NCBI RefSeq assembly: GCF_000341895.1
Contig: NC_020409.1
Location: forward strand, 2,550,001-2,582,000
Direction: 5' to 3'
Length of the DNA: 32,000 bases
Origin: Pseudodesulfovibrio piezophilus C1TLV30
GTDB taxonomy: Bacteria; Desulfobacterota; Desulfovibrionia; Desulfovibrionales; Desulfovibrionaceae
The position numbers and the translations under genes are program-made. Under the pieces are notes generated by a model. It had not been told where the DNA came from and searched no databases. It saw only the letters and a program-made list of their open reading frames with translations. Shown here in pieces: positions 389 through 19,478 of the stretch; the first letter of the stretch is position 1; each line of letters opens with the position of its first letter.

Positions 389-1228
389 TTACAGACGGCT
401 GCCAGGGATGTAATCGCCGGGATAGAGTGTCTCAAAGCCTTTGCGAACTGTTTTTACATATTCTGGGTCACGCTTGTTCGGGTCGTGATATCGCGGATCC
501 TGCATCATTTCCCTGAGTTTTTCACGGGAGAGTTCCTCGCCCCAGCCTTGGCCCGGAGAGCGCATGCCGCTTTCCAGAACAAGTGGGGCAACCTTGGCAA
601 AGGCATTGATCACGGCGGCGTGATCTCCGGCGCGGGTGGAGTCGAGAGCATGAATCAGTTCCTTGCCGCCCAGTGCTTCGGCTGCCCGCAGAGCCGAGTC
701 GAGCATGTGCGGGGTTCGTCCGCGATGCACTGCCCGCAGGGATTCCAGTTCCCGTTCCCGAAGCTGGTTTGTCTCAGCCTGCATGGTATGGTGGGTGTCA
801 ATGACCAGCGGAAGGAACCATTGGTACAGTCCTGCCACCTGCTCGGCAGTGAGGCCCAGTCGGAACGCCGCATTCTTGAACCCGTTGATCATGTCCTCCT
901 GCATTTCATAGCCATCAGGCAGGTCGATGTCCGGCAAGGTATAGCCCTCAGGGTGATCGGGACGCCCCAGTGCGGAATAAAGGGTATTTCGCTGTTCGTC
1001 GTCTCCCTGACCCTCTGGAACACGAATATATCCTTCCGGGGTTTTGCCGAGCAGTCGTTGGGCGTGGACCAGGGCTTTGACGGCTTCATCCTTGGATGTA
1101 TAATTTTTCAGGGTAGGGTGTTCCCGTAAGGGAATTTCTTCTTCCCGGCCGTCCTCGCGGGCATTTTTGATGGTCCATTCCGCGGGCAGGGTCTGTTGCC
1201 AGTTCTGGGGGATGTTTTGGGTATTCAT
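389..1228 (-). CDS. Phage scaffolding-like protein (call based on position)
   Basis: 279-aa ORF with an AAGGAG RBS and an ATGA start/stop overlap with the upstream gene. The sequence is charged and looks helical. It sits directly after the portal and a small gene, where T7-like podoviruses place the scaffold (gp9). I recognise no diagnostic motif. Confidence 0.5.
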   Translation of the reverse strand: MNTQNIPQNWQQTLPAEWTIKNAREDGREEEIPLREHPTLKNYTSKDEAVKALVHAQRLLGKTPEGYIRVPEGQGDDEQRNTLYSALGRPDHPEGYTLPDIDLPDGYEMQEDMINGFKNAAFRLGLTAEQVAGLYQWFLPLVIDTHHTMQAETNQLRERELESLRAVHRGRTPHMLDSALRAAEALGGKELIHALDSTRAGDHAAVINAFAKVAPLVLESGMRSPGQGWGEELSREKLREMMQDPRYHDPNKRDPEYVKTVRKGFETLYPGDYIPGSRL

Positions 1229-1452
1229 TGGAGTATCTCCTTGTTGATGAAGTTGGTTTCGTCACACATGTGTTTGACATGCAGGACCAGGGATCGTCGG
1301 CCTTCGTTGAAGTCGGTGCGGCCGGGGTCAGTGGAGAAATTAGAGCGCAGGAAACCTGCCCTTTTCTCCAGATCATCCATGATGGCCTGTCCGTCAGGGG
1401 TGTCAAAGATGCGCCTGTATGCGCAATGCAGTTCCAGGGGATCAAACGCCAC
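1225..1452 (-). CDS. Small conserved phage protein between portal and scaffold (possibly Bbp19-like; uncertain)
   Basis: 75 aa with a GTG start preceded by GGAGGG. It overlaps the portal stop by 11 nt and the scaffold start by 4 nt (ATGA). The tight coupling argues that it is a real gene. Confidence 0.6.
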   Translation of the reverse strand: MAFDPLELHCAYRRIFDTPDGQAIMDDLEKRAGFLRSNFSTDPGRTDFNEGRRSLVLHVKHMCDETNFINKEILQ

Positions 1453-3232
1453 GGGGACCCTCCATCTTTTGTGTTTCTGCTGTGCTTTCCGAAAGGGGAC
1501 CAGTCACTTGTTCGGCCATGGAGGAGGGGGGGGATGGTCGCTCTGCTTGGGCAGGCATTTTCTTGGCGAGTTTTCCGGCTCCACCCATGAATAAGTTCCA
1601 GGCTTCGGTGAGTATGTTCGGCCTATCCGTGTATGCCTCGGACAGGGTCTTGGCGATGGCTGCCGCATCCGCGACGGTTTTGGCTGTCATGGCAGATCCT
1701 TGGGATTTGCTTTTTTGCTCCCTGGCTGCGGCAACATCGCCTTCCGGCTTGAGGTAGTCTGCCGGAATGCCGAACAGGTCTGCCACGTGCCGGGCCATGC
1801 GGTCCGTATTGAAGTTGTCCATGATGCCGAAGGCGTCGCCTGTTCCCACCAGTGGAGAGAGGTACTGCATGGCCTGAGGGAGTCCCTGGGCCTCATAGAG
1901 CTTCTGGGCATGGGTGATGGGTGAAGTATACCGCACCTCAATGTCTTCCGGGGTCAATCCTTCCGGGAATGGCGGCAAGGCTCCGGCCCGGAGCATGATC
2001 TTGAAGACGCGCTTGATCAGCGGGCTGAGGAATTCGGTCTGCAAGCGGCCCAGCACAGGACCGAGCACTCGCATCTTTTCCGTTTGGCGAATGACAGCTT
2101 CCGTGGCACTGACGGCAGGGCCTTCCGCCGCCAGTTGGTCACTCATGAAGATGCGCCGAATGGATTCCCTGCGCTGTTGCATCATCGATTCCGTGGCTGC
2201 GAGGTCCACACGCACCGGCAAAGCCTCAATACGGTCACTGGACCCGGCGCGGTAATAGGACAAGCCTCCGGGCCCGGACCGAACCGGACCGAGAAAACCG
2301 TCATCCGGGACCATCAATGGCGGATCAGACATTTTTTCGGCAGCCATGAGCGCCGTCCGGGCCATGGCATTGAGCACTCGCGTATCTGACAGGGCGGTCT
2401 GTCCCGGTCCTCGTCCGTATATCTCTCCCGCTGCCTTGGCCCAACGCGGGACCAGATAGGGCATTTCAAGATAGCCGGATTCTTCCAGGATATTCTGACT
2501 CGCCACCTCCATATAGATTGAAGCGTATGGGAAGTTTGCCGCACCAAGAGCGAATGGATCCCGATCGGTCCTCGGGAACACTGCGTGAAGCATCATGACC
2601 TTTTCGTCGGGCCTGTCTTCACTTTTTTTTCGCACTTCGTCCGAGCACCGTGCGCCCCACTCCTGGACCGCCTGTCGAGCTGTCAGTTCATATCTTCGGT
2701 AGACGGTATCCACTACGCCTCTTGCAGATTCAGAGACATAGACCTCGCCGAGAGGCCTGGTGGAAAAACGGGCAATGGTGCGAGGATCAGCCTCCACATA
2801 CATGACCGCTGTACCCATCAAAGCCACGTCCAGATAGAGTTCATGGACATTGGTCTGGAAGCAGGAATCCTCGGAATTGAACAAGGCGGCGATACGTTCG
2901 CGGGCCTGTTGCAGGAATTCGCGGATTGTCTGCTCATCTCCACGGCCAAAGTCTCGGGCGCGGATATCAAACCACGGCATGGCAGGATTGGTGAGTAATC
3001 CACCCAGAGCCGATGCCAATAACTCAAGGGAGTGCATGGGGGTCGAGTCGAAGATGTGTTCGTCTCGGATTTGCCCTCGGTTCAGTTGCGTTCCACCTGT
3101 CGCAACGAAACTGTTTTTGCGTGGCAGCATGTATTCGGTCAATTCCCGCCATGAATCGACCCATGGTTGGCGTGTTTCCTCCAGCCCCTGAAATCGGGTC
3201 AGGAGGGATTGCGCCAATTCTTTTTTGTCCAT
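1442..3232 (-). CDS. Portal protein, T7 gp8-like head-to-tail connector
   Basis: ~596 aa. Two segments parallel T7 gp8: ELLASALGGLLTNPAMPWFDIRA and TEAVIRQTEKMRVLGPVLGRLQTEFLSPLIKRVFKIMLRAGALPPFPEGL. In gp8 the corresponding stretches are NNLASKLMLALFP and TAEEIRYVASELEDTLGGVYSILSQELQLPLVRVLLKQL. The ORF track starts at 3238. I prefer the ATG at 3232 because it is 6 nt after the GGGAGA RBS. Confidence 0.9.
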   Translation of the reverse strand: MDKKELAQSLLTRFQGLEETRQPWVDSWRELTEYMLPRKNSFVATGGTQLNRGQIRDEHIFDSTPMHSLELLASALGGLLTNPAMPWFDIRARDFGRGDEQTIREFLQQARERIAALFNSEDSCFQTNVHELYLDVALMGTAVMYVEADPRTIARFSTRPLGEVYVSESARGVVDTVYRRYELTARQAVQEWGARCSDEVRKKSEDRPDEKVMMLHAVFPRTDRDPFALGAANFPYASIYMEVASQNILEESGYLEMPYLVPRWAKAAGEIYGRGPGQTALSDTRVLNAMARTALMAAEKMSDPPLMVPDDGFLGPVRSGPGGLSYYRAGSSDRIEALPVRVDLAATESMMQQRRESIRRIFMSDQLAAEGPAVSATEAVIRQTEKMRVLGPVLGRLQTEFLSPLIKRVFKIMLRAGALPPFPEGLTPEDIEVRYTSPITHAQKLYEAQGLPQAMQYLSPLVGTGDAFGIMDNFNTDRMARHVADLFGIPADYLKPEGDVAAAREQKSKSQGSAMTAKTVADAAAIAKTLSEAYTDRPNILTEAWNLFMGGAGKLAKKMPAQAERPSPPSSMAEQVTGPLSESTAETQKMEGPRGV

Positions 3233-3234
3233 TG

Positions 3235-3549
3235 TCATTCTCCCAGCTTGGTCTTGAGTTTGGAGACGCCGACTTCGGGGGAATTGGTCAAGCCTGCCGC
3301 GCCATTGCCCAGAGTACTTTTTGTTATTGCTTCGGCCTTGCGCCGTTTTTCGAGATCGCGGGCTTCCATGACCTTGTCTCGTTCTCGGCGGCGTTCCTCA
3401 GCCTCCTCCTGCCTTTGTTCTTCTTCGCGGGCTTTGCGCTCGGCAACGAGGTTGTTCGAGGGACTGGTTGCCCCGCCGGAGATAACCCCGCCGATAACAT
3501 TGCTGGCGACGCTAGAAAGCGTCTTCATCAGTATTTCAGAGCCTCCCAT
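3235..3549 (-). CDS. Hypothetical phage protein with a Gly/Ser-rich N-terminus and a charged coiled-coil core
   Basis: The track ORF is 3235..3594. The internal ATG at 3549 has a perfect AGGAGG RBS (3560-3565), whereas the 3594 start has none. The stop TGA overlaps the ATG at 3236-3238. Confidence 0.6.
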   Translation of the reverse strand: MGGSEILMKTLSSVASNVIGGVISGGATSPSNNLVAERKAREEEQRQEEAEERRRERDKVMEARDLEKRRKAEAITKSTLGNGAAGLTNSPEVGVSKLKTKLGE

Positions 3550-3583
3550 AGTTGATAGTCCTCCTGTTAAAGTGTTTTCAGGA

Positions 3584-3676
3584 GGATAACCCATGGTTTG
3601 GGAGCAGGGTGAGAACGGGCTTCAACGGGTGTGAACGGGCAGAAGAAGGGTGAAATCAGGTGTTGACAGGGTTTGT
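3584..3676 (-). promoter_or_regulatory. Conserved upstream regulatory module, copy A (head operon)
   Basis: Read on the plus strand, the module runs in this order:
- ggataacccatGGTTTG (GGTTTG at 3595-3600)
- GGGTGAGAACGGG (3607-3619)
- GGGTGTGAACGGG (3627-3639)
- GGGTGAAATCAGG (3648-3660)
- TGTTGACAGGGTTTGT (3661-3676)
It lies 35-127 nt upstream of the head-operon ATG at 3549. The architecture matches copies B and C. Confidence 0.6.
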
Positions 3677-3735
3677 CAGCTCCCCGGAAATGGCCGGAAC
3701 AGAGGAGAAAATGAGCGCATGAAGAGAAAGAGGAC

Positions 3736-3763: not shown

Positions 3764-3836
3764 AATTATATGCCAAATGACCCGGTAGGGTTTTTTTGCG
3801 GACCAGGGACGGTCGGCTTTGGCAGGGAGAAAGACA

Positions 3837-6023
3837 ATGTCTGCCCACGTTACCGATTTCATCATGGCCGGTCCTCCCGGTCATGTGACAGCAGGTCCCG
3901 CAGGGTCATTCAGGGCGAGCGATGCCGGTCGAGCCGTTATTGGCGAGCCGGGCTACGTGCCCATTGATACCACTCCGGCATATATTCCCATCGATACCAC
4001 TCTTCCAAGGATTCCCTATGCTCCGGGCATGGGAATTACCGTCACCGATTCTTCTGTGGGTGTTCATATCACAGGCGGGACCTCTGTAGGCGGTTTTGTG
4101 GAAGGCTCTACACAGGCTCCCATAGGCGGAGGTCATACATCGCCGACTCCGGTCAACGGAGGAGTGGTTAGTATGCCCAACTCCAGCAGTGCGAGTACTG
4201 CTACCGGTGTCGGCAGCACCGGGCTTGTGGGCGGGAATTCCGTTACCACGATCAATAATACGCAGGGTAATGTTTCCATAGGCGGGTCAACTTCCATTGT
4301 CGAATCTGGCAGGACCTCGGTGTCCCCGTCCGGCGGAAGCAGCTCCGGGACATTCGAGCGGGGTGGGTACAGTTCTCCTGAGGGGGGTGGACATGTTCCC
4401 ATTTCAACGGAGCACGGCAACGTTCCGGTTTCCCTTGCCGGTTCCGTTCCGATTACACCACATATCGGGTTCTCCATGCCGACTCTTTCCGGCATCACCC
4501 CCAGTACTCCCAGCGGGCGGGTGCAGGCTTTTCGTCACACAGCTCCGCACGGTTCGTATTTCGGACACACGCAACATTGGCCCAATGACGTCTTTCATCA
4601 CACTACGCATTCCTCCGGGTTTACACCCAAGTCCGTGCCACAGGCTCCATGGGTTCCCACTGTGGATGGCTATGAAGAGTCCAAGTTGCCGACGACTTCT
4701 TTTGATGATTCCATGGGACGTGGCAATCCCATTGACATGTCATCATCTTATTCCATGAATATCGATCAGACGCGGGATATCGATCAAAATCATCTGGTCA
4801 CCTACAACGAAACCGTGGACAGGGCGCTTGATCTTTCCATGAACTCCGTGGTGCAACGCAGCGATTCTGTTCTGAATCAGACTGATCTGGATAATTCTTC
4901 CACGACGAACCTGGATATGAGCACCACGCAGAACGTGGACAATGCCAATACGGTCAATCAAGTGACCAATCAGGATGCCATTTACAACACGACGCAGCAG
5001 AATGTGATGGAGCAGGATAATTCCAGAACCTTCAATAATACTGAAAATCGGGAATTGATCAACGAAAACCAGAATGTGCAGGTTCAGAATGTCGATGCGA
5101 CCCAGTCTGTCACGGAGAACAGGGTGGTTGATCAGAGCGTGTTGGACAATTCCACGGCCAACTATGTCAATCAGCGTGATGTCTCTGTCAGTTATGATAA
5201 TTCCGTGACCAGAGCCGAGGACCATTCCTCGTCCAATCAGGTTATCAATGAGAATACCTATAATGAAGTGGATAACTCCGTCAGCGAACAGAATACGTTG
5301 AGCCAAACAGTGCTTGAAAGCGAATATTCCTCCAATGTGTCCTTTAATGAGACGCATCTCAATCAGAACGACAACTCCACGGATATGGACACTGACATTG
5401 CGTTCGTCAGTCAGACCAATGACAACTCCACGGTCAATTATACATCGGATAATGACGTCAGCTTTGTGGAAAACAGGAACTTCAATGAAACTTCCACGGA
5501 AACCCATATCAACGAGAACGATAATTCGCGGGTTGTGGAACAGAGCACCAACTACAACTTCTCACAGAATGATAATTCCGTGACCAATATTGTGGATAAC
5601 AATTCCACAGTCATCAACGAAAACAGAGAGATGTCCGTCGAGTACAACACGTCTTCGGAAAATGTCTTCGATCAGTCTCGACACATAGATCAATCCACGG
5701 CGTTCAATTTCGTGGATCAGGACAACTCTGTCGTGCAATATGTCAATGACAACGACATAACCATGGTGGAGAACGATAACGTCACGCTGTCCTTCCCGGA
5801 AACACGTCTGCTTGAGATTGATAACTCAAATACAGTGGAAGTGAACAATACGTTCCAGAATCAGCACAATGACAATTCTCAGACCAATTATGTGGATGCG
5901 CGGGAAATGACGGTTCTTGATATCGATCAACCCAGCTACACTGTGGATCAATCAAGCAGCCTGGTCATGAATTTCCAGGCTCCGGAGCGGGCCGGCGGCG
6001 ATCTCATGGTCGGCAATGCCTGA
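3837..6023 (+). CDS. Low-complexity acidic Asn/Asp/Ser/Thr/Gln repeat protein, function unknown
   Basis: - The track ORF starts at a TTG (3819). The ATG at 3837 sits 6 nt after a GGGAGA RBS, giving 728 aa.
- I see no Sec signal peptide.
- The N-terminal third is Gly/Ser/Thr/Pro-rich, with a YVPIDTT/YIPIDTT tandem and a His-rich patch.
- The C-terminal ~430 aa contains about a dozen DNS tripeptides set in degenerate repeats.
- By my reading the protein has only 2 Lys and no Cys.
- The gene has its own promoter and a strong terminator. Confidence 0.8.
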   Translation: MSAHVTDFIMAGPPGHVTAGPAGSFRASDAGRAVIGEPGYVPIDTTPAYIPIDTTLPRIPYAPGMGITVTDSSVGVHITGGTSVGGFVEGSTQAPIGGGHTSPTPVNGGVVSMPNSSSASTATGVGSTGLVGGNSVTTINNTQGNVSIGGSTSIVESGRTSVSPSGGSSSGTFERGGYSSPEGGGHVPISTEHGNVPVSLAGSVPITPHIGFSMPTLSGITPSTPSGRVQAFRHTAPHGSYFGHTQHWPNDVFHHTTHSSGFTPKSVPQAPWVPTVDGYEESKLPTTSFDDSMGRGNPIDMSSSYSMNIDQTRDIDQNHLVTYNETVDRALDLSMNSVVQRSDSVLNQTDLDNSSTTNLDMSTTQNVDNANTVNQVTNQDAIYNTTQQNVMEQDNSRTFNNTENRELINENQNVQVQNVDATQSVTENRVVDQSVLDNSTANYVNQRDVSVSYDNSVTRAEDHSSSNQVINENTYNEVDNSVSEQNTLSQTVLESEYSSNVSFNETHLNQNDNSTDMDTDIAFVSQTNDNSTVNYTSDNDVSFVENRNFNETSTETHINENDNSRVVEQSTNYNFSQNDNSVTNIVDNNSTVINENREMSVEYNTSSENVFDQSRHIDQSTAFNFVDQDNSVVQYVNDNDITMVENDNVTLSFPETRLLEIDNSNTVEVNNTFQNQHNDNSQTNYVDAREMTVLDIDQPSYTVDQSSSLVMNFQAPERAGGDLMVGNA
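5349..5831 (+). repeat. Degenerate ~150-nt (50-aa) intragenic repeats
   Basis: The in-frame anchors ETHLNQNDNS (from 5349), ETHINENDNS (from 5499) and ETRLLEIDNS (from 5799) are spaced 150 and 300 nt apart. Related blocks (DNSTVNYTSDNDVSFVEN and DNSVVQYVNDNDITMVEN) recur between them. Confidence 0.6.
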
Positions 6024-6130: not shown

Positions 6131-6496
6131 TCAGGTTGGGTCAACGTCCATGGACATGGTCTGGAGGACGCACTGGTCAGTGAAACCGTAGATCCGGGCA
6201 AAACGGAAAAGATTGGGATTTAATCCCTCTGCATGACTGATGCGAATGCCGGTGATGCGTTTTTTCCCCAACCGTCTGCTTTCTTCTTTGAGCCAGTGAA
6301 CGTCGCCATGGATATTTCGCCTGATTTGTGGTCCCCATCGGATGAGTGAGACGTGGAGTTCCAGCGCGTCCTCATGTTCCCGAATGGCGGAATAGCCATA
6401 GGGCAAATCATTGTGATGCAGTTCGAGCCATCGGTAGTTTTCTTGTGTGAAATGAGCCAGTTCCCTGGGCTTTTTTTTCAGTTCACGAACGCTCAT
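6131..6496 (-). CDS. Hypothetical protein translationally coupled to TerL (faint GNAT-like C-terminal pattern)
   Basis: The track ORF 6131..6616 overlaps terL. The ATG at 6496 follows a GGAGG RBS and overlaps the terL stop by 14 nt, giving 121 aa. The segment RRLGKKRITGIRISHAEGLNPNLFRFARIYGF loosely resembles an acetyltransferase motif A/B region, which is weak evidence. Confidence 0.55.
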   Translation of the reverse strand: MSVRELKKKPRELAHFTQENYRWLELHHNDLPYGYSAIREHEDALELHVSLIRWGPQIRRNIHGDVHWLKEESRRLGKKRITGIRISHAEGLNPNLFRFARIYGFTDQCVLQTMSMDVDPT

Positions 6497-7769: not shown

Positions 7770-7823
7770 TGCTTAAAGATCCTTGTTGTTGACGGACACG
7801 ACCTGCGAGCGTATTTCCAAGCG

Positions 7824-9581: not shown

Positions 9582-9616
9582 GGCGTCTCTCCTTGTTTTT
9601 CCTCAAGCACGCCGCA

Positions 9617-9709: not shown

Positions 9710-9732
9710 CCTCAAAGGGTGATGTCTCCTTC

Positions 9733-12397: not shown

Positions 12398-12515
12398 CTC
12401 TCTTGAAGCATGGTGGCGATCTTGATGCTCCTTGAGACGACAGGGCGGGTGTTTTTGGTTCAGGAAAAACTATTGACGAATATTTTCCACCTCGTGGTGG
12501 AGTGAGGAGAGTCTC

Positions 12516-13427: not shown

Positions 13428-13440
13428 ATTAATCTCCTTT

Positions 13441-15738
13441 TTAAAATGCGTTGCTGTATTTGGTTGATTCGAGCATGGCAAGGCCGACCATAAGGTTCCC
13501 TTCGCCATTGACCTGAGGATTGGTGCCGGTGATTTTTATGCCCTGACTGGAAAAGAGTGTTGAAATGTTGCTTTCCGTTGTCTCAACATCGGTCGAGTCA
13601 GGGAGAAGATAACTCGCAACAATATTTTTTTCATTTCTTGCAGAGTCGAAAAGGAAGTGGTGTCCAACCTCATCTGTGTTCTTTAATGCAAACAGTGCCC
13701 GTGGTTTGCCTCCCAAATGGACAAATGGACCATCTTCAGAGCCGTTGCCGACGTAGCTGAAAGCTTGGAAAATCGCAGAATCGGCAAAAAGATAGGCCAT
13801 ATGTTTTTGGCCGAGACCATTGACTCCAGGGTTACTTCCAACGGTGAAATGAGTGCTTGTGGGTGGAGTGTCATTCCAGATATCGCTTTTTTCTTGAGCG
13901 TTTTCCGTAGAATTGAGGAGGAGGTGTTTTTTTTCACCCAGAGCCGAATGGTAGAGTGCCCATCCCAGAGTGCCCGTTTCAAGATTTTTGACGATCATGA
14001 AAGAGGGAGGCGCTTGGAGTGCATGGGAGATATCTCTGCCGGAGGAGCCGTCACCTGTGTATTCGATCAGTTCAAATCCTTGATACGGAGCGGATTTGAG
14101 GCAGAGATCAAGAAAGGAGTTACCTGACTTGTTAATGAAGCTTGCATACCCTAAGTTGTAGCCGTCATCATTGAAAGCGGTGAGCGAATCCGTAAAGTAT
14201 GATTGGGCGGATGAAGAGTTGGTCCTGAGGTATTTGGTTGTTCCTTGGCACCGATCGAATAATCCCCAGGAATCAACAGCCCATCTGCCTTTGATGTAGA
14301 CAAAATCAGGGGCGAATTCCAATGAAGACACGGTTGTGTCGCCGCCCGTGCCGATCCGAGTCGTGATATCGAAGACTGTCGAAGATCGAAGCAGGGTAGG
14401 CTCGGGATTGGTCTTGATACACAGCGGTTTGAATCCTGTCGGAGGAGAGAAAGCAAAGATTGTTCCGCCGGAGTTCAAGGTGATTTTCTGGTCCATTGCC
14501 CCGGTGGTCACGAATGGGAGTACTCTCTGTGGCAAGCCAGTTATCATCGGGTTTACATGGTTTATCGGGTCTCCATCCTCCAACCATGAACCATTGCGCC
14601 CTATCCACATGTTATTTCCTTTGAGGGCGAATTGGAAAATGTCACCAGCTGAAAAAAATGGTGGATTCACCCATTCCGAAAACACTCCATCGGCATAATA
14701 CCCTGCCGCATCACACGAAAAATGTCCGGCCTTGTTTGCCATGTTGGTCGAAGGGCACCGGGATTCAATGGCTCCCATTGAAAGAGAAGCCGTTGAAGCA
14801 AGTGTCTCAAGGGTGCATTCCCAATATAATCCGCGCTCTGTTGCCATGGGAATGTCACCCATGGCCATGGTAAAAGAATCGTTGTTTGAAGAAATAGTTC
14901 TGTTTCCATTGGAAAAAATCAATTCATTTGTCCTGTCTAGGGAAAGGAGTCTGTTGAACGTACAATGATTGTTTGTCGGGGTATCTCCGCATTGTGCGGG
15001 ATCTCCGATTACCGTCCAGTGGTTTTCCTGTGCACTGTCATGACCGAGATTGGCTGCATCTGAAAATCGCAGATGAAAACCATTTTGCCCCAGAGTGAGA
15101 TCTTTTGATTTTCGGGGAATCCACAGCCCGGTTATAATGGATGAGTATTCTCCGAACTGATGTATGCCCTGGGGTATTCCATCCACAAAAATTATATCTG
15201 AAGCGTAGCCGTTAATCGGTGTCGTTATTAAGTGAAGTTTTCTTCCTATGTACATCTGGTAATTGATGTCGTTAACTGATGTCACTGTGTTCTGAGCGGC
15301 CATTGTGCTCGTTTCCAGTGGTACCAGGCGGTTCCCGTTGTAATAGACTCTGACTCTGTCAAGGGCGGCAGGTGCCGTTGTGTCCACCATGACTGCAAGA
15401 TGGTACCATGCGGTGGGGTCGGAAAAGACGTTCCAATCAAAAGAATATTTGAAAAGGGTGGTTCCGGCTGAGTTCGCTTGAAAAACAGAGAATTGGTTGT
15501 CATTGAGGAATATATGGAAACGAGGTTTCAAACTTGCGCTACCTGCCGTAAAGAAGCAGTGCCCAGCCGCTTCGCATGTCGTTCCCTTGAACCATCCGCT
15601 GAAGGTAAAGGTTTGCGTATTGCCTGTGGTTTGAGGAGTCCGGGCAAGATACTGTCCTGTGGATAAAAGTGCCGAATGTGACAATTCTCTTGGAAAAACA
15701 GGGATTATTTCATGATTATGTTCTTTCGGAGTGAGCAT
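13441..15738 (-). CDS. Putative distal tail fibre / receptor-binding protein with LamG-like and SPRY-like jelly-roll domains
   Basis: The ATG at 15738 sits after GGAGGCGTAAC (the track ORF starts at 15849 and overlaps the upstream gene), giving 765 aa. A LamG/concanavalin-like pattern is present (FTFSGWFKG...WYHLAVMVD...VRVYYNGNRLV). A SPRY-like pattern is present (GLYWECTLE...GDIFQFALKGNNMWIGRNGSW). Confidence 0.65.
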   Translation of the reverse strand: MLTPKEHNHEIIPVFPRELSHSALLSTGQYLARTPQTTGNTQTFTFSGWFKGTTCEAAGHCFFTAGSASLKPRFHIFLNDNQFSVFQANSAGTTLFKYSFDWNVFSDPTAWYHLAVMVDTTAPAALDRVRVYYNGNRLVPLETSTMAAQNTVTSVNDINYQMYIGRKLHLITTPINGYASDIIFVDGIPQGIHQFGEYSSIITGLWIPRKSKDLTLGQNGFHLRFSDAANLGHDSAQENHWTVIGDPAQCGDTPTNNHCTFNRLLSLDRTNELIFSNGNRTISSNNDSFTMAMGDIPMATERGLYWECTLETLASTASLSMGAIESRCPSTNMANKAGHFSCDAAGYYADGVFSEWVNPPFFSAGDIFQFALKGNNMWIGRNGSWLEDGDPINHVNPMITGLPQRVLPFVTTGAMDQKITLNSGGTIFAFSPPTGFKPLCIKTNPEPTLLRSSTVFDITTRIGTGGDTTVSSLEFAPDFVYIKGRWAVDSWGLFDRCQGTTKYLRTNSSSAQSYFTDSLTAFNDDGYNLGYASFINKSGNSFLDLCLKSAPYQGFELIEYTGDGSSGRDISHALQAPPSFMIVKNLETGTLGWALYHSALGEKKHLLLNSTENAQEKSDIWNDTPPTSTHFTVGSNPGVNGLGQKHMAYLFADSAIFQAFSYVGNGSEDGPFVHLGGKPRALFALKNTDEVGHHFLFDSARNEKNIVASYLLPDSTDVETTESNISTLFSSQGIKITGTNPQVNGEGNLMVGLAMLESTKYSNAF

Positions 15739-15739
15739 G

Positions 15740-16732
15740 TTACGCCTCCATGTTCTGCACCGAAAGGATGCTTTTTCGGTTATTGTATTGTTCAACAACA
15801 ATTCTGATTTCCTCAGCACTTGTGCTCGGCAACGGTAGCTTTCCGTCATTGTTGTAGCTTTCAGCGAGGTTCAAGGTATAGCCGGCAGGGTAGACATGGA
15901 AAATATAGGTTCCATCAAAAGGTAAAAGAACGTCGCTGAAGAAGCTTGGAGCTTCCAGAGTCCAGAGGATATGATTGCGTTCCACTTCCAGGGTGAGGAG
16001 ATCGACCCCTGAATAAAGTTGGGCTTCGTCGCCGAAAACCGTTTGTAGGATATCCGGGATATCTGCTTTGAGAATGGTGGTATCAGCAGGTTCAGCATCA
16101 AGAAGAGCCAGAGCGTCGAGGGAGGATTGGGCTGTTGCCATAGCCCGACCTGTTGCGCCAAAACCAAGATTACTGAGCGCCTCTTCGATATCCCTGCCCC
16201 CTGTACCTCCTTCACCGATCGAGAGCGGGATTCCGACCATACCTATATCTCCGGCCTGCTTGTTGATCAGGTTGTCACCGGATTCATTCCACGCGATAAG
16301 ACGCCCGGGGTCTGGTTCAGGCAGTTCAACACCACTCACGGCAGATGAAACACGAAAGGTGATCGTTCGATCCAATCGTTCGGAAAGTGTCTGGCAGATC
16401 ATCGTCAGTTTATCCAGAGCCGCTTCATGTGTGGCTGCGGGAAAGGCGTCGTTTTCTACATAATCAACTTCCTGGACAATGGACGGGTTGCGTCTGATGA
16501 CAAGATGTTCTCCTTTTGCCGGAGCCGAAGTCATGGTGCAGATCCCGCCTGTATGATGTCCAGCCCCGGAAAGTTGATAATCTGTACTGATGGTTTGAAC
16601 TGTTTCGGTGTCCGGAGATGATAGGACGACTTCGAGATCATTATTTTCGAGGAAGAGAAAAGGCACTGCAAACAGTGTTGTTGAGCCATTCCCCATATAT
16701 ATGACCCGTGATTGGGTGGATGAGATTGTCAT
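15740..16732 (-). CDS. Tail fibre protein with a T7 gp17-like N-terminal (tail-attachment) domain
   Basis: 330 aa with an AGGAG RBS. The N-terminus is VIYMGNGSTTLFAVPFLFLENNDLEVVL...TDYQL...GEHLVIRRNPSIVQEVDYVENDAFPAATHEAALDKL. It parallels T7 gp17 (LTYQLDGSNRDFNIPFEYL...TDYRF...IELRRVT...DFTDGSILRAYDLN). Confidence 0.75.
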   Translation of the reverse strand: MTISSTQSRVIYMGNGSTTLFAVPFLFLENNDLEVVLSSPDTETVQTISTDYQLSGAGHHTGGICTMTSAPAKGEHLVIRRNPSIVQEVDYVENDAFPAATHEAALDKLTMICQTLSERLDRTITFRVSSAVSGVELPEPDPGRLIAWNESGDNLINKQAGDIGMVGIPLSIGEGGTGGRDIEEALSNLGFGATGRAMATAQSSLDALALLDAEPADTTILKADIPDILQTVFGDEAQLYSGVDLLTLEVERNHILWTLEAPSFFSDVLLPFDGTYIFHVYPAGYTLNLAESYNNDGKLPLPSTSAEEIRIVVEQYNNRKSILSVQNMEA

Positions 16733-16735
16733 GGT

Positions 16736-17212
16736 TTATCTCCTTGAGTTGTAAATGGTTGATCCCAGGGAAAGAGTGGAAGAAGGCGTCTTTAGGTCGT
16801 TGTTGATGCGGAACATATTTGCTTCACGGCGTCCTTGTTTCAGGGTCTTTTGTGCTGCATGTTCTCCTTCAAAGAGCAAGTCTTCTTCCTTTTGTCTGTC
16901 CTGGAGTTTGTCTGAGTCCCTGATCAATTGTTTCGAACCGCTCATGGCCAGATTGGATTGTCCCCATTTCGTGTTTTTACGGCTTCTGTTCTCTTCAAGT
17001 TCCTCACGGGACTGGGTGGCTTGACCCCGAGCTTGTCTTCGCTGGTCACTGGCCGTTCCTGCGGCGTTCAACTCCATTAATTTCGCTTGCTCCTCGGCCA
17101 TTTTTGAAGGGTCTGCCGATTCAGAACTCGACCCCATGAATTTATCTGTGAGTTTATCGAACATGGTGACCCCCTGTTCAAATTGGTCCATTGCCTGTTG
17201 GTCGATACCCAT
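16736..17212 (-). CDS. Hypothetical charged phage protein (possible internal/assembly protein)
   Basis: 158 aa with an AGGAG RBS. It lies between the nozzle and fibre genes. It is rich in Gln/Arg/Glu and looks like a coiled coil. Confidence 0.55.
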   Translation of the reverse strand: MGIDQQAMDQFEQGVTMFDKLTDKFMGSSSESADPSKMAEEQAKLMELNAAGTASDQRRQARGQATQSREELEENRSRKNTKWGQSNLAMSGSKQLIRDSDKLQDRQKEEDLLFEGEHAAQKTLKQGRREANMFRINNDLKTPSSTLSLGSTIYNSRR

Positions 17213-17239
17213 GGTGTACTCCTTTGTTGTAGTCTGTTG

Positions 17240-19336
17240 TTATTCGTTGGTAATTGAGGTGGGGACAATGAGGAGGATGGTCATGGGCAAGGGTTGCTCC
17301 TGAGTAACGGTCAGAAGACCTTCCCGTGTCCATCCCTTGGGGAAAGTGATGGATTTATCGCCGGAGAAAGCACCGACAGATTGATCCATGGGAATTGCCG
17401 ATGACCGGAAATTCAAGGATTCAAGCTTGTTTGCGCTCGGGCCGATCTTACCCCCCAGAGTCTCGTGAAATCGAACGGAGACTTTGGTGATTCGTTGCCG
17501 TTTTGTCTGGGTCGTTCCGCGTTGGCTTCCGCCTTCAAGTCGCATGGGTTGAACCGAGGAGACATAAGGAAGCCCCGCGTGAACCGTGGACGAAGGGCGA
17601 TCAAGTGTAATGGCTCCGGTATCAGAAACCACCTTGTCCGTTTGTACAGAGCCATCAGCCAAGACTGTCACTGTCCTTCCGGCCAAATGGTCCAGTCCTG
17701 TCAGTTCCGTGATACTTTCGCCTGAGTAGCTCAATCCGCTGTCAACGAAGAAGGCCTCTTCGATCACGCCGGAAAAGCCTTTTTCCAAATATTCAATGTA
17801 GCGCCTGACCTCTCCCTGCACTTCTCGCCGGACAACCACCCACAGCTCGTCTCGTTTGCTGATATCGCTGTATATGGACGTCACCCCTTCCACGACACCA
17901 TCGGTCTCGTGTCGGGACCATGCCGCGACATCCTGAGAAGGATCGTATGTCAAGGCCGCAAGAAGGCCGTCATTGCGGACGCAATACAGAACTGCATCCG
18001 GCTCTTGCACAAAGGCAAGTTGGGTGACGCCAGTCTCAGTGATATGTTCTGACAGGAGGCTCAAGTCTTTGGAAACATAGGCATCAGATTCAAACCGATA
18101 TGCCATTTCTCGAATCTTTCGGCCCGATCGCTGGATGAAAAGAGTCGCGAATCCGACTGATTCCGGTCTGGATCGGGCGGCACCGCAGGTGCCTTCATGA
18201 TTGGCTTTGACATTCTCCGGAGAGAGCGCTTCACTGCTTGCGCCTGAGACCGTCCATTCTCCACCTGCGGTTCCGATCCACAATCGACTTCGAGGAACCA
18301 TGAACTCTATAGCATTGGCCTGCCGCCCGGAAAGCGTGACTTCGATTCCATCGTCACTCAGGGGCGAGTCGCCTGCCTGGGCGTCGGTTCTTTCTCCAAC
18401 CTCGAAGGAGTCCCAATATTGTTCATTGAGCACTCCATCAGACGTCCATATCGGCTCAATGGTGTTTGCGGCAGTTGAATCCTTGAAGGTAATGGTCTCG
18501 TTATCGCCGGATGCCACAAAGCTTTTCGTTCCCTTGTATCGATAGTAACGAGTGATACCGTCGCAGTCCTGGCCTTTGATACCATCCTTGTTTTCGAATC
18601 CGTCTCCGTCCAATAGAGTGAAGGTGTCGCCGCTTTGGCCATTGCGAACGCCATCCGAGTTGGAGTCGAGAATTTCCCGGTCTCGCCATCCATCCAAAGG
18701 GACTTCGCGCGTCTTGAGACGAAAATCCGTCATTTCTCCGGTGCGGGAAAACCAAAGCGTGCCGGGTTCATTCGGGGTCGCGGCCAGAACAAGTCGTTGC
18801 TCAAAGAAACAGACCGCCGAGGGGTAATTCTCTGGTCCCCAGACCTCGGGTTGGCCCATGAATTCCAGCTCTTCCAATGCCCAGTCATCATGGTCGAGGC
18901 GGGTCATCTTGCGAACAGGGTGCGAAGGGTGGATCAGGATCAGAATATCCGCAGTCTGAGCAAAACGCAGATCTTCAAGTTCTTCGGCTTTATATGGAAT
19001 ATCGCGGAGATATTCTTCTCCATCCGAAAGGACGACGCCATGGTCGGCAAAAACACGCATCCTACCCTGACCCGAATCCTCTTCGCCGAATTCGAGCACA
19101 TACGTTTGCGCCCCGTTGAACTCGAAGGGAATAAGCAAGGTCGGTTTGTTTTGACTGATCGCCTGTGCCACAAAACGGAAGCCGGATCTTCGAGTGATGC
19201 CTCCGTGAGGGTGGATATGAAAGTTTTTCAGCTTCCGGCATCCATTATAGTATTTAGAGAGGTCAGTTCGCCCTTCAAGCCGGGGGCTCATCTCTCCGGC
19301 TGTGAAATTGGTCAGTGACGGTGTGGAAATACTCAT
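17240..19336 (-). CDS. Tail tubular protein B / nozzle (T7 gp12-like)
   Basis: 698 aa with an AGGAGA RBS 8 nt upstream. The N-terminus (FTAGEMSPRLEGRTDLSKYYNGCRKLKNFHIHPHGGITRRSGFRFV) and the C-terminus (ITKVSVRF...LTVTQEQPLPMTILLIVP) follow the conserved ends of gp12-like nozzle proteins (T7: GGISQQPD...; ...SDETTPLNIIGCGWEG). Confidence 0.7.
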   Translation of the reverse strand: MSISTPSLTNFTAGEMSPRLEGRTDLSKYYNGCRKLKNFHIHPHGGITRRSGFRFVAQAISQNKPTLLIPFEFNGAQTYVLEFGEEDSGQGRMRVFADHGVVLSDGEEYLRDIPYKAEELEDLRFAQTADILILIHPSHPVRKMTRLDHDDWALEELEFMGQPEVWGPENYPSAVCFFEQRLVLAATPNEPGTLWFSRTGEMTDFRLKTREVPLDGWRDREILDSNSDGVRNGQSGDTFTLLDGDGFENKDGIKGQDCDGITRYYRYKGTKSFVASGDNETITFKDSTAANTIEPIWTSDGVLNEQYWDSFEVGERTDAQAGDSPLSDDGIEVTLSGRQANAIEFMVPRSRLWIGTAGGEWTVSGASSEALSPENVKANHEGTCGAARSRPESVGFATLFIQRSGRKIREMAYRFESDAYVSKDLSLLSEHITETGVTQLAFVQEPDAVLYCVRNDGLLAALTYDPSQDVAAWSRHETDGVVEGVTSIYSDISKRDELWVVVRREVQGEVRRYIEYLEKGFSGVIEEAFFVDSGLSYSGESITELTGLDHLAGRTVTVLADGSVQTDKVVSDTGAITLDRPSSTVHAGLPYVSSVQPMRLEGGSQRGTTQTKRQRITKVSVRFHETLGGKIGPSANKLESLNFRSSAIPMDQSVGAFSGDKSITFPKGWTREGLLTVTQEQPLPMTILLIVPTSITNE

Positions 19337-19385
19337 GTCGCATGTCTCCTCTTTGTTCTCCTGGACGGTTCGGGTATGCGACAGA

Positions 19386-19478
19386 GGCTATCACCGGTTT
19401 GTGCGGCAGGATGAAAAAGGGTGTGAGCGGGCGTGAGCGGGTTCTACAGGGATGACATTCCCTGTTGACAGGGTTTGT
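19386..19478 (-). promoter_or_regulatory. Conserved upstream regulatory module, copy B (tail operon)
   Basis: Read on the plus strand, the module runs in this order:
- ggctatcaccGGTTTG (GGTTTG at 19396-19401)
- GGATGAAAAAGGG (19409-19421)
- GGGTGTGAGCGGG (19419-19431)
- GGGCGTGAGCGGG (19429-19441)
- GGGATGACATTCC (19449-19461)
- TGTTGACAGGGTTTGT (19463-19478)
The last element is identical over 16 nt to 3661-3676. G-triplets recur every 10 nt. The module lies 50-142 nt upstream of the ATG at 19336. Confidence 0.6.

What the first reader, a model, noticed from the sequence alone, without database searches (positions are those of the whole stretch)
389..19478. Dispersed but intact T7-like podovirus morphogenesis modules with no mobility or replication genes: candidate domesticated (GTA-like) particle system
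SEEN IN THE SEQUENCE
- Four modules all lie on the minus strand: head (389-3549), TerL (6131-7769), lysis-like (8965-9581) and tail (12990-19336).
- Every ORF is full length.
- Genes inside each module are translationally coupled, with ATGA or short overlaps and good RBSs.
- Plus-strand transcription units separate the modules. These include clearly cellular genes (dus, cyclase, EamA, slyX).
- An NSS transporter gene directly flanks the head module.
- Across 19 kb I find no integrase or recombinase, repressor, replication or DNA-metabolism gene, RNA polymerase, att-like direct repeat or tRNA.

ESTABLISHED KNOWLEDGE
- T7-like phages keep portal, scaffold, capsid, gp11, gp12, core proteins, fibre, holin and terminase in one colinear block.
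- Known gene transfer agents (RcGTA, Bartonella BaGTA, Brachyspira VSH-1) are encoded by morphogenesis-only genes, partly scattered over several loci under host control.
- From memory: the short-tailed GTA Dd1 of Desulfovibrio desulfuricans (Rapp and Wall 1987) has never had its genes identified.

INFERENCE
- The gene set looks maintained and co-regulated (see the shared upstream module) rather than like a decaying prophage.
- It could encode a podovirus-derived GTA or another domesticated particle.
Basis: partly seen in the sequence, partly recalled or inferred. Interest (0 to 1): 0.85.

Follow-up and report, generated by a model that had tools for sequence, protein, structure and literature searches.

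The report
Scattered, host-kept podovirus particle genes
The sulfate-reducing bacterium Pseudodesulfovibrio piezophilus, like most of its relatives, keeps a full set of short-tailed-phage head, tail and DNA-packaging genes scattered among ordinary genes, each group behind the same phage-derived promoter, which is the signature of a domesticated gene-transfer-agent-like particle and not of a dying prophage.

Summary
The window comes from the Pseudodesulfovibrio piezophilus chromosome. It carries four intact minus-strand modules of an HTVC010P-type podovirus, which is T7-like only in portal, gp11/gp12 and fibre:
- o104-portal-Bbp19-scaffold
- TerL plus a 121-aa gene
- o135-o70
- gp12-o158-fibre-chaperone

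Cellular genes separate the modules. There is no integrase, tRNA, att repeat or replication gene.

The "missing" major capsid (plus an 83-aa gene) and gp11 lie 20-24 kb beyond the left edge, behind about 15 housekeeping genes. The whole set spans 43 kb.

Orthologues occur in at least 15 of 19 named Pseudodesulfovibrio species and in several other Desulfovibrionaceae genera. They share host flanks and the same splits. dN/dS is 0.03-0.25, and dN is no higher than in the neighbouring host genes.

Five operons each carry a ~95-bp promoter module, which recurs at orthologous positions in about 40 genomes. In related true temperate phages it occurs once, ahead of the late operon.

TerL catalytic residues are invariant. 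TerS and the internal ejection proteins were not found.

Domestication is strongly supported. GTA function is inferred, not shown. Some related phages nest inside the clade, so the history is not simple.

The parts
389..1228 (-). Scaffold-like protein, 279 aa. It occupies the position of the HTVC010P 293-aa gene between the Bbp19-like gene and the capsid gene.
   Evidence: phrog_3742 3.3e-24; PF05396 2.6e-4, below cut-off. Orthologues 59-75% identical across Pseudodesulfovibrio. dN/dS 0.11-0.15.
1228..1452 (-). Bbp19-like small protein, 75 aa.
   Evidence: PF25181 2.7e-19. Conserved next to the portal gene in about 30 loci.
1442..3238 (-). Portal protein, T7-type head-tail connector.
   Evidence: PF12236 4.4e-166. 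100% identical to the P. piezophilus portal P0001, and 59-82% to portals in Desulfovibrionaceae. dN/dS 0.08-0.12.
3235..3549 (-). o104: small Gly-rich, charged protein upstream of the portal gene. It stays with the portal gene in all genera. Function unknown; by position and composition it resembles T7 gp7.3 (inference).
   Evidence: ATGA overlap with the portal gene. Start set by the RBS and promoter. Orthologues found.
3583..3678 (-). Promoter module copy 1, upstream of o104-portal-Bbp19-scaffold.
   Evidence: nhmmer E 1e-19 and 1e-14. Aligns almost without gaps to the four other copies.
3819..6023 (+). o734: Asn/Ser/Thr/Asp-rich repeat protein, divergent from the portal operon. It is a conserved neighbour; whether it belongs to the system is uncertain.
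   Evidence: No family hit. Internal 300-375-nt repeats. Same position and strand in L005, L006, L011, L013, L016, L017, L019, L022, L041, L047, L052, L061, L062, L088.
6131..6496 (-). o121: conserved gene translationally coupled to TerL. Function unknown.
   Evidence: 14-nt overlap with TerL plus an RBS. Follows both TerL types in relatives. AF2 pLDDT 62 and no fold match.
6483..7769 (-). Large terminase, 428 aa: ATPase plus RNase-H-like nuclease.
   Evidence: PF03237 2.1e-12; phrog_2 3.5e-40. PDB 4zni 2e-15. Walker A GKT, Walker B DE, and D251, D306, D386, D393 are invariant with the phage TerLs. dN/dS 0.04.
7761..8960 (+). TPR lipoprotein gene, antisense between o70 and TerL. It occupies the place where related phages carry TerS. 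It is a conserved insertion; its role is unknown.
   Evidence: TPR families up to 8e-38. Lipobox LLMGC. Same antisense position in L062, L047, L013, L022, L023, L041. TerS sits at this position in phages L091/L092. The TerS profile finds nothing here.
8965..9177 (-). o70: small helical protein with a hydrophobic C-terminus. It is conserved in the related phages just upstream of TerS.
   Evidence: 69% identical in P. cashew and 53-73% in phages L091/L092. Sequence.
9174..9581 (-). o135: membrane protein with three hydrophobic segments. It is the first gene of the packaging operon and a holin candidate.
   Evidence: phrog_2524 5e-10. PF11351 only E = 0.55. Hydropathy. Positional analogue of the L054 3TM holin and the L092 159-aa gene. 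No significant pairwise similarity to them.
9615..9712 (-). Promoter module copy 2, upstream of o135-o70 and probably of TerL-o121 by read-through.
   Evidence: nhmmer 1.2e-20. No separate copy and no strong terminator before TerL.
12990..13508 (-). Tail fibre assembly chaperone.
   Evidence: PF16778 4.9e-27; phrog_4912 9e-20.
13441..15849 (-). Distal tail fibre / receptor-binding protein. Fast-evolving or swapped.
   Evidence: PF24299 1.6e-58, Laminin_G_3, phrog_19943 5e-92. Only 30% identical to the orthologous position in L066/L068, with dN 1.9. GC 0.46-0.49.
15740..16732 (-). Fibre adaptor carrying the T7 gp17 N-terminal domain.
   Evidence: phrog_1640 2.3e-37; PF03906 1.1e-5. 59-70% identical in L066-L068.
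16736..17212 (-). o158: charged protein after gp12, at the position of the first internal or tail-associated protein.
   Evidence: 44% identical in L066-L068. A weak link of the equivalent gene in L017/L019/L023 to the phage L054 208-aa gene.
17240..19336 (-). gp12-like tail tubular protein B (nozzle).
   Evidence: phrog_376 2.2e-181. 69% identical in L066 over 1-698, with dN/dS 0.08.
19385..19479 (-). Promoter module copy 3, upstream of the tail operon.
   Evidence: nhmmer 7.5e-19. Orthologous copies lie before gp12 in L066, L017, L019, L041.
19508..19547 (-). Strong intrinsic terminator that isolates the tail operon from the upstream small Zn-ribbon gene.
   Evidence: 18-bp stem followed by a T-run.

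Best explanation
The window holds most of a chromosomally fixed, host-maintained set of morphogenesis genes from an HTVC010P-type temperate podovirus.

Organisation (shown):
- In P. piezophilus the set is split into at least five operons spread over about 43 kb.
- The tail, packaging and portal/scaffold operons lie in the window.
- The capsid-o83 and gp11 operons lie 20-24 kb to the left.
- Housekeeping genes lie in between.
- Each operon starts with a copy of one ~95-bp promoter module: a TGTCAAC box, then 3-4 helically phased repeats, then AAAACCGGGGnTAnnCT.
- In related free phages this module occurs once, in front of the late operon and just after a small HTH_17 gene.

Proposed mechanism (inferred):
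1. One activator, a phage-derived HTH protein, switches on all five operons together. In some genera it sits next to an S24 CI/LexA-like repressor.
2. Scaffold, portal and the 276-aa capsid protein build a procapsid.
3. TerL, whose ATPase and nuclease residues are intact, fills it with DNA. The sequence-reading small terminase found in the phage relatives was not found here.
4. gp11, gp12, the fibre adaptor, the distal fibre and the chaperone complete a short tail.
5. o135 and o70 help release.

The gene set is larger than the 31-37 kb genomes of the nearest phages, and it has no replication or integration genes. The particle therefore cannot propagate itself. It most likely carries host DNA, as a gene-transfer-agent-like viriform.

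The internal ejection proteins of the phage relatives were not found. Delivery may therefore stop at the periplasm, as in RcGTA (inference).
For: Identity and completeness:
- The P. piezophilus capsid P0243 and gp11 lie on the same 36.8-kb contig as the window's scaffold gene.

Fixation:
- Portal orthologues at 59-82% identity were found in 54 genome loci, almost all Desulfovibrionaceae and mostly one per genome.
- Portal and/or capsid were seen in 15 of 19 named Pseudodesulfovibrio species.

Shared context:
- pfkB-Zn-ribbon-gp12...flgE in L066.
- scaffold...RlmN-Pkinase-Zip...DsbA-asparaginase-capsid in L061/L063/L064.
- o734 and the TPR gene at fixed positions.
- The scaffold/capsid split is shared by all Pseudodesulfovibrio loci with enough flank.

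Selection:
- dN/dS is 0.05-0.25 in the closest pairs.
- Against the window it is 0.04-0.15, with dN 0.10-0.23. The host genes pfkB, flgE and NSS give dN 0.33, 0.25 and 0.10.
- TerL catalytic residues are invariant.

Regulon:
- The five P. piezophilus copies align almost without gaps.
- A model built only from them finds orthologous copies in more than 25 other loci.
- The iterated model gives 73 hits. Of these, 68 lie directly upstream of a phage-derived module and the other 5 precede TerL or TerS-like genes.
- There is no other copy in the 32-kb window.
- Phages L092 and L091 each have one copy, at the start of the late operon.

Phage controls are colinear and carry lysogeny and replication genes.

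Losses:
- The TerS profile finds nothing in Pseudodesulfovibrio loci.
- The L054 449-aa and 311-aa internal proteins have no homologue in the domesticated loci.
Against: - No particle, packaged DNA, transcript or transfer has been observed.
- The activator and repressor were not found in the 63 kb examined in P. piezophilus.
- No endolysin, TerS or ejection protein was located. They may be elsewhere, or the machine may be incomplete.
- Capsid size is unknown. The 'cannot package itself' step rests on the 43-kb span against the genome sizes of relatives.
- Colinear temperate phages L091/L092 nest inside the clade in rough NJ trees, and their gp11 is 81% identical to that of P. piezophilus. Part of the 'vertical' pattern could reflect repeated capture or gene exchange with circulating phages.
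- The portal-versus-capsid distance correlation is weak (r = 0.54, not significant).
Confidence: 0.6

Rival explanations
1. Phage-responsive regulon. The dispersed structural genes keep the late promoter of their phage relatives so that the late activator of an infecting or induced relative (L092-like) switches them on. They would then poison or hijack that phage's assembly (defence or piracy), or package host DNA only during infection. They would not be run by the host on its own schedule.
For: - The promoter module is the phage late promoter: one copy in L092/L091, directly after an HTH_17 gene.
- No resident activator was found near the P. piezophilus genes.
- Closely related temperate phages exist and share 64-81% identical portal, capsid and gp11 proteins, so mixed assemblies are conceivable.
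Against: - The direct repeats in the module differ between phages (CCGGATTTAAC) and the resident copies (TTTTCAYCC). Cross-activation is therefore not obvious.
- In the Humidesulfovibrio/Desulfocurvus lineage a resident HTH_17 plus S24 repressor pair is retained among host genes. That argues for autonomous control.
- A complete tail and fibre with a diversifying receptor-binding part is not needed for assembly interference.
Confidence: 0.15
2. A domesticated particle with a function other than gene transfer. Examples are a killing or competition particle, a DNA-release and lysis device for biofilm, or a cargo shell. The capsid and terminase would be retained for assembly reasons.
For: - Purifying selection and co-regulation show function but not which function.
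- The fast-changing distal fibre fits targeting of other cells.
- A secreted SNase homologous to the phage one lies beside gp11.
Against: - The ATPase and nuclease residues of TerL are invariant and TerL is the most constrained gene (dN/dS 0.04). That points to real DNA packaging.
- Known killing particles (tailocins) have lost heads and terminases.
Confidence: 0.12
3. Inert remnants of an old prophage, broken up by rearrangements and slowly decaying.
For: - No capsid gene next to the scaffold gene.
- No TerS, endolysin or ejection genes found.
- Modules interleaved with host genes.
- Some relatives have fragmented copies: L049 gp12 in three pieces, and L025, L052 and L053 with frameshifts, some in draft or long-read assemblies.
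Against: - All 15 phage-derived genes are intact in P. piezophilus.
- dS is saturated while dN is 0.1-0.2.
- The genes are conserved across genera.
- A conserved promoter is copied in front of every fragment, with indels of exactly one helical turn.
- The capsid is at least 90% identical among four species.
Confidence: 0.05
4. A normal, inducible prophage whose interleaved genes are morons, with integrase and att sites outside the window.
For: Related intact temperate phages exist (L054, L091, L092, L096).
Against: - The gene set spans 43 kb and includes glnD, amtB, glnB, acs, rlmN, dus and transporters.
- No integrase in 63 kb.
- No tRNA or att repeats.
- The gene order is rearranged and gp11 is inverted.
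- The host flanks are conserved between species.
Confidence: 0.02

Closest known systems
RcGTA of Rhodobacter capsulatus, with its multilocus 'genome' (PMC5026251) and RcGTA-like viriforms (PMC9662315)
   Same: - Phage-derived head, tail and packaging genes fixed in the chromosome.
- Vertical conservation across a clade.
- Purifying selection.
- Several loci co-regulated by one activator.
- No replication or integration genes.
- Terminase specificity subunit reduced or missing.
   Different: - No sequence relationship: RcGTA is an HK97-type siphovirus derivative.
- Here the ancestor is a podovirus with a T7-type portal and gp11/gp12.
- Dispersal is more extreme, down to single genes.
- Every fragment carries its own copy of the ancestral late promoter.
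- Activity here is unproven.
HTVC010P-type podoviruses (Pelagibacter phage HTVC010P, NC_020481) and the uncultured temperate relatives L091, L092, L054 and L096
   Same: - Same proteins, and the same order within modules: TerL(423-428 aa)-x-portal-75-78 aa-scaffold-MCP(276-284 aa)-x-gp11(193-195 aa)-gp12.
- Same late-promoter architecture in L091/L092.
   Different: - The phages are colinear 28-37 kb genomes with repressor, CII, replication and nuclease genes, TerS and a block of internal proteins.
- The window's set is dispersed.
- It lacks all of these functions in the regions examined.
FpGTA of Faecalibacterium prausnitzii (PMC12946183, 2026)
   Same: - A GTA-like element thought to be podovirus-like.
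- Encoded in more than one locus.
- Found outside the Alphaproteobacteria.
   Different: - Different phylum.
- Two operons, compared with at least five here.
- Packaging of host DNA was shown experimentally for FpGTA and not here.
- No homology was tested.
Dd1 of Desulfovibrio desulfuricans (Rapp and Wall 1987), with the putative island Ddes_0703-0720 (PMC5701242, PMC6854486)
   Same: - Same bacterial family.
- From my own knowledge, not re-checked here: a short-tailed particle carrying host DNA.
   Different: - The proposed Dd1 locus is one contiguous island with a TerS directly upstream of TerL.
- D. desulfuricans does not appear among the 120 closest portal or capsid hits.
- Homology between the two was not testable here.

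Membership tests
Gene transfer agent (viriform) | Phage-derived structural genes fixed in the host chromosome and inherited with the host lineage | tested here: met
   - 54 genome loci in Desulfovibrionaceae.
- Conserved host flanks and shared module splits.
- Caveat: phages L091/L092 nest within the clade.
Gene transfer agent (viriform) | Genes under purifying selection, not decaying | tested here: met
   - dN/dS 0.03-0.25.
- dN no higher than in flanking host genes.
- All genes intact.
Gene transfer agent (viriform) | No phage replication, integration or lysogeny functions with the structural genes | tested here: met
   - None in the window plus 31 kb to the left.
- Other genera retain an S24 repressor-like gene and an HTH_17 gene.
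Gene transfer agent (viriform) | The particle cannot carry all the genes that encode it | tested here: inconclusive
   - The gene set spans 43.1 kb.
- The nearest phages have 28-37 kb genomes.
- Actual head capacity is unknown.
Gene transfer agent (viriform) | Particles package essentially random host DNA and deliver it to recipients | not testable with these tools
   Needs particle purification, sequencing of protected DNA and transfer assays.
Gene transfer agent (viriform) | Production under cellular regulatory control | tested here: inconclusive
   - A common promoter lies in front of all five operons.
- It is of phage origin.
- The regulator in P. piezophilus was not found.
T7-like phages (Autographiviridae) | Phage-encoded single-subunit RNA polymerase and one colinear gene block | tested here: not met
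   - No RNA polymerase domain in the window or in the phage relatives.
- The genes are dispersed and reordered.
T7-like phages (Autographiviridae) | T7-type portal, gp11/gp12 tail tube and fibre N-terminal domain | tested here: met
   PF12236, phrog_394, phrog_376, PF03906 and phrog_1640.
HTVC010P-type podovirus (as an autonomous phage or prophage) | Complete colinear genome with TerS, internal proteins, lysis, replication and lysogeny modules | tested here: not met
   Only about 13.5 kb of structural and packaging genes are present, split into five operons.
Integrated prophage (intact or defective) | Integrase, att repeats (often at a tRNA) and a contiguous phage block | tested here: not met
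RcGTA-like GTAs | Homology to RcGTA head, tail and terminase genes | tested here: not met
   - No RcGTA family hit.
- The only trace is PF11351 GTA_holin_3TM at E = 0.55 for o135, which is not significant.
Dd1 candidate locus (Ddes_0703-0720) | Homology to the proposed D. desulfuricans island | not tested
- D. desulfuricans is absent from the listed top hits.
Capsid-forming satellites (cf-PICI-like) | A mobile island with integrase, its own head and packaging genes, and no tail genes | tested here: not met
   Tail genes are present, there is no integrase, and the genes do not form an island.

The most novel reading that the evidence does not exclude
A previously undescribed lineage of podovirus-derived gene transfer agents, widespread in the Pseudodesulfovibrio-Humidesulfovibrio branch of the Desulfovibrionaceae. 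Its genes have been scattered down to single-gene operons. They are held together as one regulon because the ancestral phage late promoter was copied in front of every fragment. An SOS-type repressor plus HTH activator pair is retained in some genera. The DNA-recognising small terminase and the ejection proteins have been discarded.
Probability: 0.45. Interest if true: 0.9.

Novelty: new variant of a known kind. Interest (0 to 1): 0.8.

Why it matters
Only a handful of genetically distinct GTAs are known, and almost all the mechanistic work is on alphaproteobacterial siphovirus derivatives.

What this system would add:
- A candidate podovirus-derived system in sulfate reducers, which matter for sulfur and mercury cycling, corrosion and the deep biosphere.
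- An independent example of domestication.
- A clear, testable regulon signature: a 95-bp promoter model that finds the parts genome-wide.
- A series of stages running from colinear temperate phage to compact cluster to fully scattered genes. This series shows how a virus is dismantled and rewired.
- A route to identify new GTA components and regulators. Anything behind the promoter module is a candidate.
- A reason to revisit the old Dd1 observation in the same family.

Tried and rejected
1. TerL frameshift or pseudogene. Rejected: the 428-aa plus 121-aa pair, with its short overlap, is conserved in relatives.
2. Capsid gene lost. Rejected: it was hidden as a member of a 90%-identity cluster and lies 20 kb to the left.
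3. o135 as the homologue of the L054 holin, o158 as the L054 152-aa gene, o121 as the L054 130-aa gene, and o70 as the L054 95-aa gene. No significant pairwise similarity in any case.
4. Function of o121. The profile against PDB gave only E = 2.3 to a GNAT protein. Single-sequence AF2 gave pLDDT 62. Foldseek found nothing below E = 0.1.
5. NCBIfam, Pfam and PHROGs found nothing for o104, o121, o70, o158, o734 or the Zn-ribbon gene.
6. A strict regular expression for the heptad repeats found only two sites. It was replaced by an HMM.
7. A conserved RNA structure in the ~150-nt capsid leader. RNAalifold gave only -2 kcal/mol, so there is no support.
8. att-like repeats: none.
9. Literature. No paper on this system was found in six searches. 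Rapp and Wall 1987 and Lang 2012 are not held.
10. Mantel tests of module co-divergence are inflated by phage outliers, and portal versus capsid is not significant. I give them little weight.
11. Resident activator and TerS in P. piezophilus: not found in the DNA I could reach.

Full report
**What is in the window**

The window is a stretch of the Pseudodesulfovibrio piezophilus chromosome. Its portal ORF is 100% identical to the NCBI portal protein of that species, which lies on a 3.65-Mb contig. Three JGI samples hold identical contigs.

On the minus strand the window carries four groups of phage-type genes:
- Scaffold-like 389-1228, Bbp19-like 1228-1452, portal 1442-3238 (PF12236, 4e-166) and a small gene 3235-3549.
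- TerL 6483-7769 plus a 121-aa gene 6131-6496.
- o70 8965-9177 and o135 9174-9581.
- Fibre chaperone 12990-13508, distal fibre 13441-15849, a fibre adaptor with the T7 gp17 N-domain 15740-16732, o158 16736-17212 and a gp12-like nozzle 17240-19336 (phrog_376, 2e-181).

Between the groups, on the plus strand, lie a 734-aa repeat protein, a TPR lipoprotein gene, dus, a cyclase, an EamA transporter and slyX. An NSS transporter gene follows the scaffold gene directly. The window has no tRNA, no Rfam match, no att-like repeats and no integrase, repressor, replication or RNA-polymerase domain.

One correction is needed: the 'TerL' block is two translationally coupled genes. This arrangement is conserved in relatives, so it is not a frameshift.

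**The missing parts exist elsewhere**

The major capsid protein of this phage type is a 276-aa PF19821 protein. I found it first in Humidesulfovibrio mexicanus. I then found it in nearly all Pseudodesulfovibrio species.

The P. piezophilus copy (CCH49608.1) was hidden inside the 90%-identity cluster of the P. cashew protein. It lies on the same 36.8-kb contig as the window's scaffold gene, about 20.1-21.0 kb beyond the left edge and on the same strand. An 83-aa gene follows it.

A 195-aa gp11-like gene (phrog_394, 2e-51) lies 2 kb further on, inverted.

The genes between the scaffold and capsid genes are NSS, rlmN, a Zip transporter, a Ser/Thr kinase, a thioesterase, acs, an acetyltransferase, a glycosyltransferase, amtB, glnB, glnD, dsbA and an asparaginase. 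The complete set thus spans about 43.1 kb, from window position 19479 to about 23.7 kb left of position 1. Roughly 13.5 kb of that is phage-derived coding sequence.

**Ancestry**

The nearest cultured phages are HTVC010P-type pelagiphages:
- Portal 42.9-45.5% identical.
- Capsid up to 43% identical.

HTVC010P has the same order and gene sizes: TerL 423 aa, two small genes, portal, a 78-aa gene, a 293-aa gene, the major capsid protein of 284 aa, two small genes, gp11 of 193 aa, then gp12.

The set is T7-like only in its portal, gp11/gp12 and fibre N-domain. No RNA polymerase is present.

Much closer uncultured relatives are colinear temperate phages:
- L054 and L096.
- Especially the IMG/VR genomes L091 (28 kb) and L092 (37.5 kb).

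L091 and L092 carry AAA_24, SNase, an S24 CI-like repressor, a CII-like gene, VRR-NUC and a small HTH_17 gene. One late operon follows: DUF5675, a 159-aa gene, o70, TerS, TerL, portal, Bbp19, scaffold, capsid, o83, gp11 and gp12.

**Evidence for domestication**

*Distribution.*
- A portal-based scan of one genome per species returned 54 loci. Almost all are Desulfovibrionaceae: Pseudodesulfovibrio, Salidesulfovibrio, Desulfocurvus, Humidesulfovibrio and several misnamed 'Desulfovibrio'.
- Portal and/or capsid were seen in 15 of the 19 named Pseudodesulfovibrio species.

*Shared context and shared breaks.*
- In a relative with 69% gp12 identity, the tail operon sits between the same pfkB/Zn-ribbon genes and flgE.
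- In the closest relatives the scaffold gene is again followed by host genes, including rlmN and the kinase. The capsid gene again follows dsbA and the asparaginase gene.
- The 734-aa gene stays divergent from the portal operon.
- The TPR gene stays antisense between o70 and TerL, in several genera.
- In H. mexicanus and D. aminophilus the portal gene and its small upstream gene sit alone among chemotaxis, tRNA-synthetase and signalling genes.

*Selection.*
- The closest locus pairs give dN/dS of 0.05-0.25 for portal, scaffold, Bbp19, o104, TerL and o121.
- Against the window, dS is saturated. dN is 0.10 for TerL, 0.15-0.20 for portal and 0.23 for gp12.
- The neighbouring host genes give dN of 0.33 (pfkB), 0.25 (flgE) and 0.10 (NSS).
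- The TerL Walker A and B motifs and four nuclease aspartates are invariant between the resident genes and the true phages.
- Only the distal fibre is essentially unrelated between relatives (30% identity, dN 1.9, lower GC). That is what one expects of a receptor-binding part still under diversifying pressure or cassette exchange.

**The shared promoter**

The five operon starts of P. piezophilus align almost without gaps over about 95 bp. They lie before gp12, o135, o104/portal, capsid and gp11.

The module has three parts:
- A TGTCAAC box, often the palindrome CCTGTCAACAGG.
- Three to five T-tract/CCC repeats with a 10-11-bp period.
- AAAACCGGGGnTAnnCT, whose end fits a -10 hexamer without a -35.

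An HMM built only from these five copies finds the module at orthologous positions in more than 25 other loci.

The iterated model gives 73 hits in about 1.3 Mb:
- 68 lie 0-530 nt upstream, on the same strand, of a portal, capsid, gp12, gp11, o135, Bbp19 or TerL gene.
- The other five led me to a second TerL type and to a TerS-like gene, both preceded by the module.

Further observations on the module:
- The window has exactly three copies and no others.
- Genera outside Pseudodesulfovibrio lack exactly one 10-nt repeat, which keeps the helical phase.
- Phages L092 and L091 each have one copy. It lies between the HTH_17 gene and the first late gene, and its repeat sequence differs.

The module is therefore the ancestral late promoter, copied in front of each fragment as the gene set was dispersed. 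That is hard to explain without selection for joint expression.

TerL-o121 has no copy of its own in the window, and no strong terminator precedes it. It is probably read from the o135 promoter, across the antisense TPR gene. This is an inference.

**Regulator**

In the Humidesulfovibrio/Desulfocurvus-type loci, a highly conserved ~65-aa homologue of the phage HTH_17 protein sits next to a divergent S24 repressor-like gene. The pair lies 6.5-9 kb upstream of the portal gene, with host genes (TauE, a PPDK-like gene) in between. This suggests a repressor-activator switch of phage origin, possibly responsive to DNA damage.

I found no such genes in the 63 kb of P. piezophilus that I could reach. 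Control in this species is therefore open.

**What has been lost**

- The phage TerS is 136 aa with an N-terminal HTH and lies between o70 and TerL. A profile search does not detect it in any Pseudodesulfovibrio locus. The antisense TPR gene sits in its place.
- The block of internal proteins that follows gp12 in the phages has no counterpart. In all resident versions gp12, o158 and the fibre adaptor are adjacent.
- No endolysin was found.

Loss of sequence-specific packaging initiation and of self-sufficient ejection both parallel RcGTA (PMC11841831, and my own knowledge of RcGTA uptake). Either could also mean that the parts lie elsewhere in the genome.

**Caveats**

- Nothing here shows particles, packaging or transfer.
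- In rough NJ trees, phages L091/L092 fall inside the resident clade. Their gp11 is 81% and their capsid 64-77% identical to the P. piezophilus proteins. Their scaffold is only 24-28% identical. Repeated capture, or gene exchange between resident genes and circulating phages, has probably occurred.
- Within Pseudodesulfovibrio the clade is coherent and shares its breaks. At least a genus-level fixation is therefore well supported.
- A few relatives show fragmented copies.

**Comparison with what is known**

- Functionally the closest analogue is the multilocus RcGTA system. There is no homology to it.
- A podovirus-like GTA-like element was reported only in 2026, in Faecalibacterium, and was called the first of its kind (PMC12946183).
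- The Desulfovibrio GTA Dd1 has a proposed contiguous island, Ddes_0703-0720 (PMC5701242, PMC6854486). I could not test its relation to this system.
- I found no paper describing the present system.

**Verdict**

I rate this a new variant of a known kind: a candidate podovirus-derived, extremely dispersed, promoter-linked GTA-like system.

- About 0.9 confidence that it is a domesticated, selected and co-regulated gene set.
- About 0.5-0.6 confidence that it makes DNA-carrying transfer particles.

Noticed in passing
window 3819-6023 (+): A 734-aa protein made of Asn/Ser/Thr/Asp/Val-rich repeats, with internal 300-375-nt DNA repeats and GC of 0.455. Only its N-terminal ~65-100 aa are well conserved, and its length varies (734-849 aa). 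It stays divergent from the portal operon in many genera and matches no family.
   Followed up: partly
window 7761-8960 (+): A TPR lipoprotein gene lies antisense between o70 and TerL. Its start overlaps the TerL start by 9 nt. The same arrangement occurs in at least six other genomes from several genera, at the place where related phages encode TerS.
   Followed up: partly
window 9673-9712: The upstream end of promoter module copy 2 overlaps the first ~40 nt of the dus ORF as called (GTG at 9673). The Dus domain starts only at residue 49, so the true dus start may be further downstream.
   Followed up: no
window 19574-19867 (-) and terminator 19508-19547: A small Cys-rich (Zn-ribbon-like) gene lies directly upstream of the tail operon. 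It is 69% identical at the same position in L066 and is followed by a very strong terminator. The 168-aa ORF listed mechanically is probably too long.
   Followed up: partly
window 13441-15849 and 15740-16732: The fibre adaptor ORF and the distal fibre ORF overlap by about 110 nt in different frames. The overlap recurs in L066 and L068. It could be two proteins or a programmed frameshift fusion.
   Followed up: no
L064 9857-10000 (capsid leader), also L061, L014, L057, L016, L023, L022: The capsid gene has a 118-159-nt leader between the promoter module and the start codon. The leader carries recurring CCGGCCCGG and GGAYAYCC(A/G)C motifs. No convincing conserved secondary structure was found.
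   Followed up: partly
L064 12233-12760 (+): A secreted staphylococcal-nuclease homologue lies between the capsid operon and gp11 of P. piezophilus. It is 49-51% identical to the SNase of temperate phage L092 and may be another phage-derived gene.
   Followed up: partly
L015, L018, L020, L023, L052 (for example L018 6980-8431): These lineages use a different, 483-aa large terminase in front of the same o121-like gene. It is preceded by a TerS-like gene and, in L018, by the promoter module. This looks like a non-orthologous replacement of the packaging enzyme within the same system.
   Followed up: partly
L028 8464-8667, L035 6828-7004, L043 14308-14583: A small Ala/Phe-rich membrane protein, followed by the TerS-like gene, sits behind a promoter module in Humidesulfovibrio/Desulfocurvus-type genomes. 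It is a possible holin.
   Followed up: no
L058 2435-9687: In a second H. mexicanus-like genome, an unrelated integrative element (tyrosine integrase, Toprim/DUF927 primase) is inserted immediately upstream of the o101-portal promoter. It replaces the host genes seen at that place in L057.
   Followed up: no
L016, L017, L019, L023, L041 and window 10777-12725: The cyclase and slyX genes recur next to gp11, gp12 or the fibre chaperone in several genera, despite rearrangements. They may be old passengers of the integration site or recruited partners.
   Followed up: no
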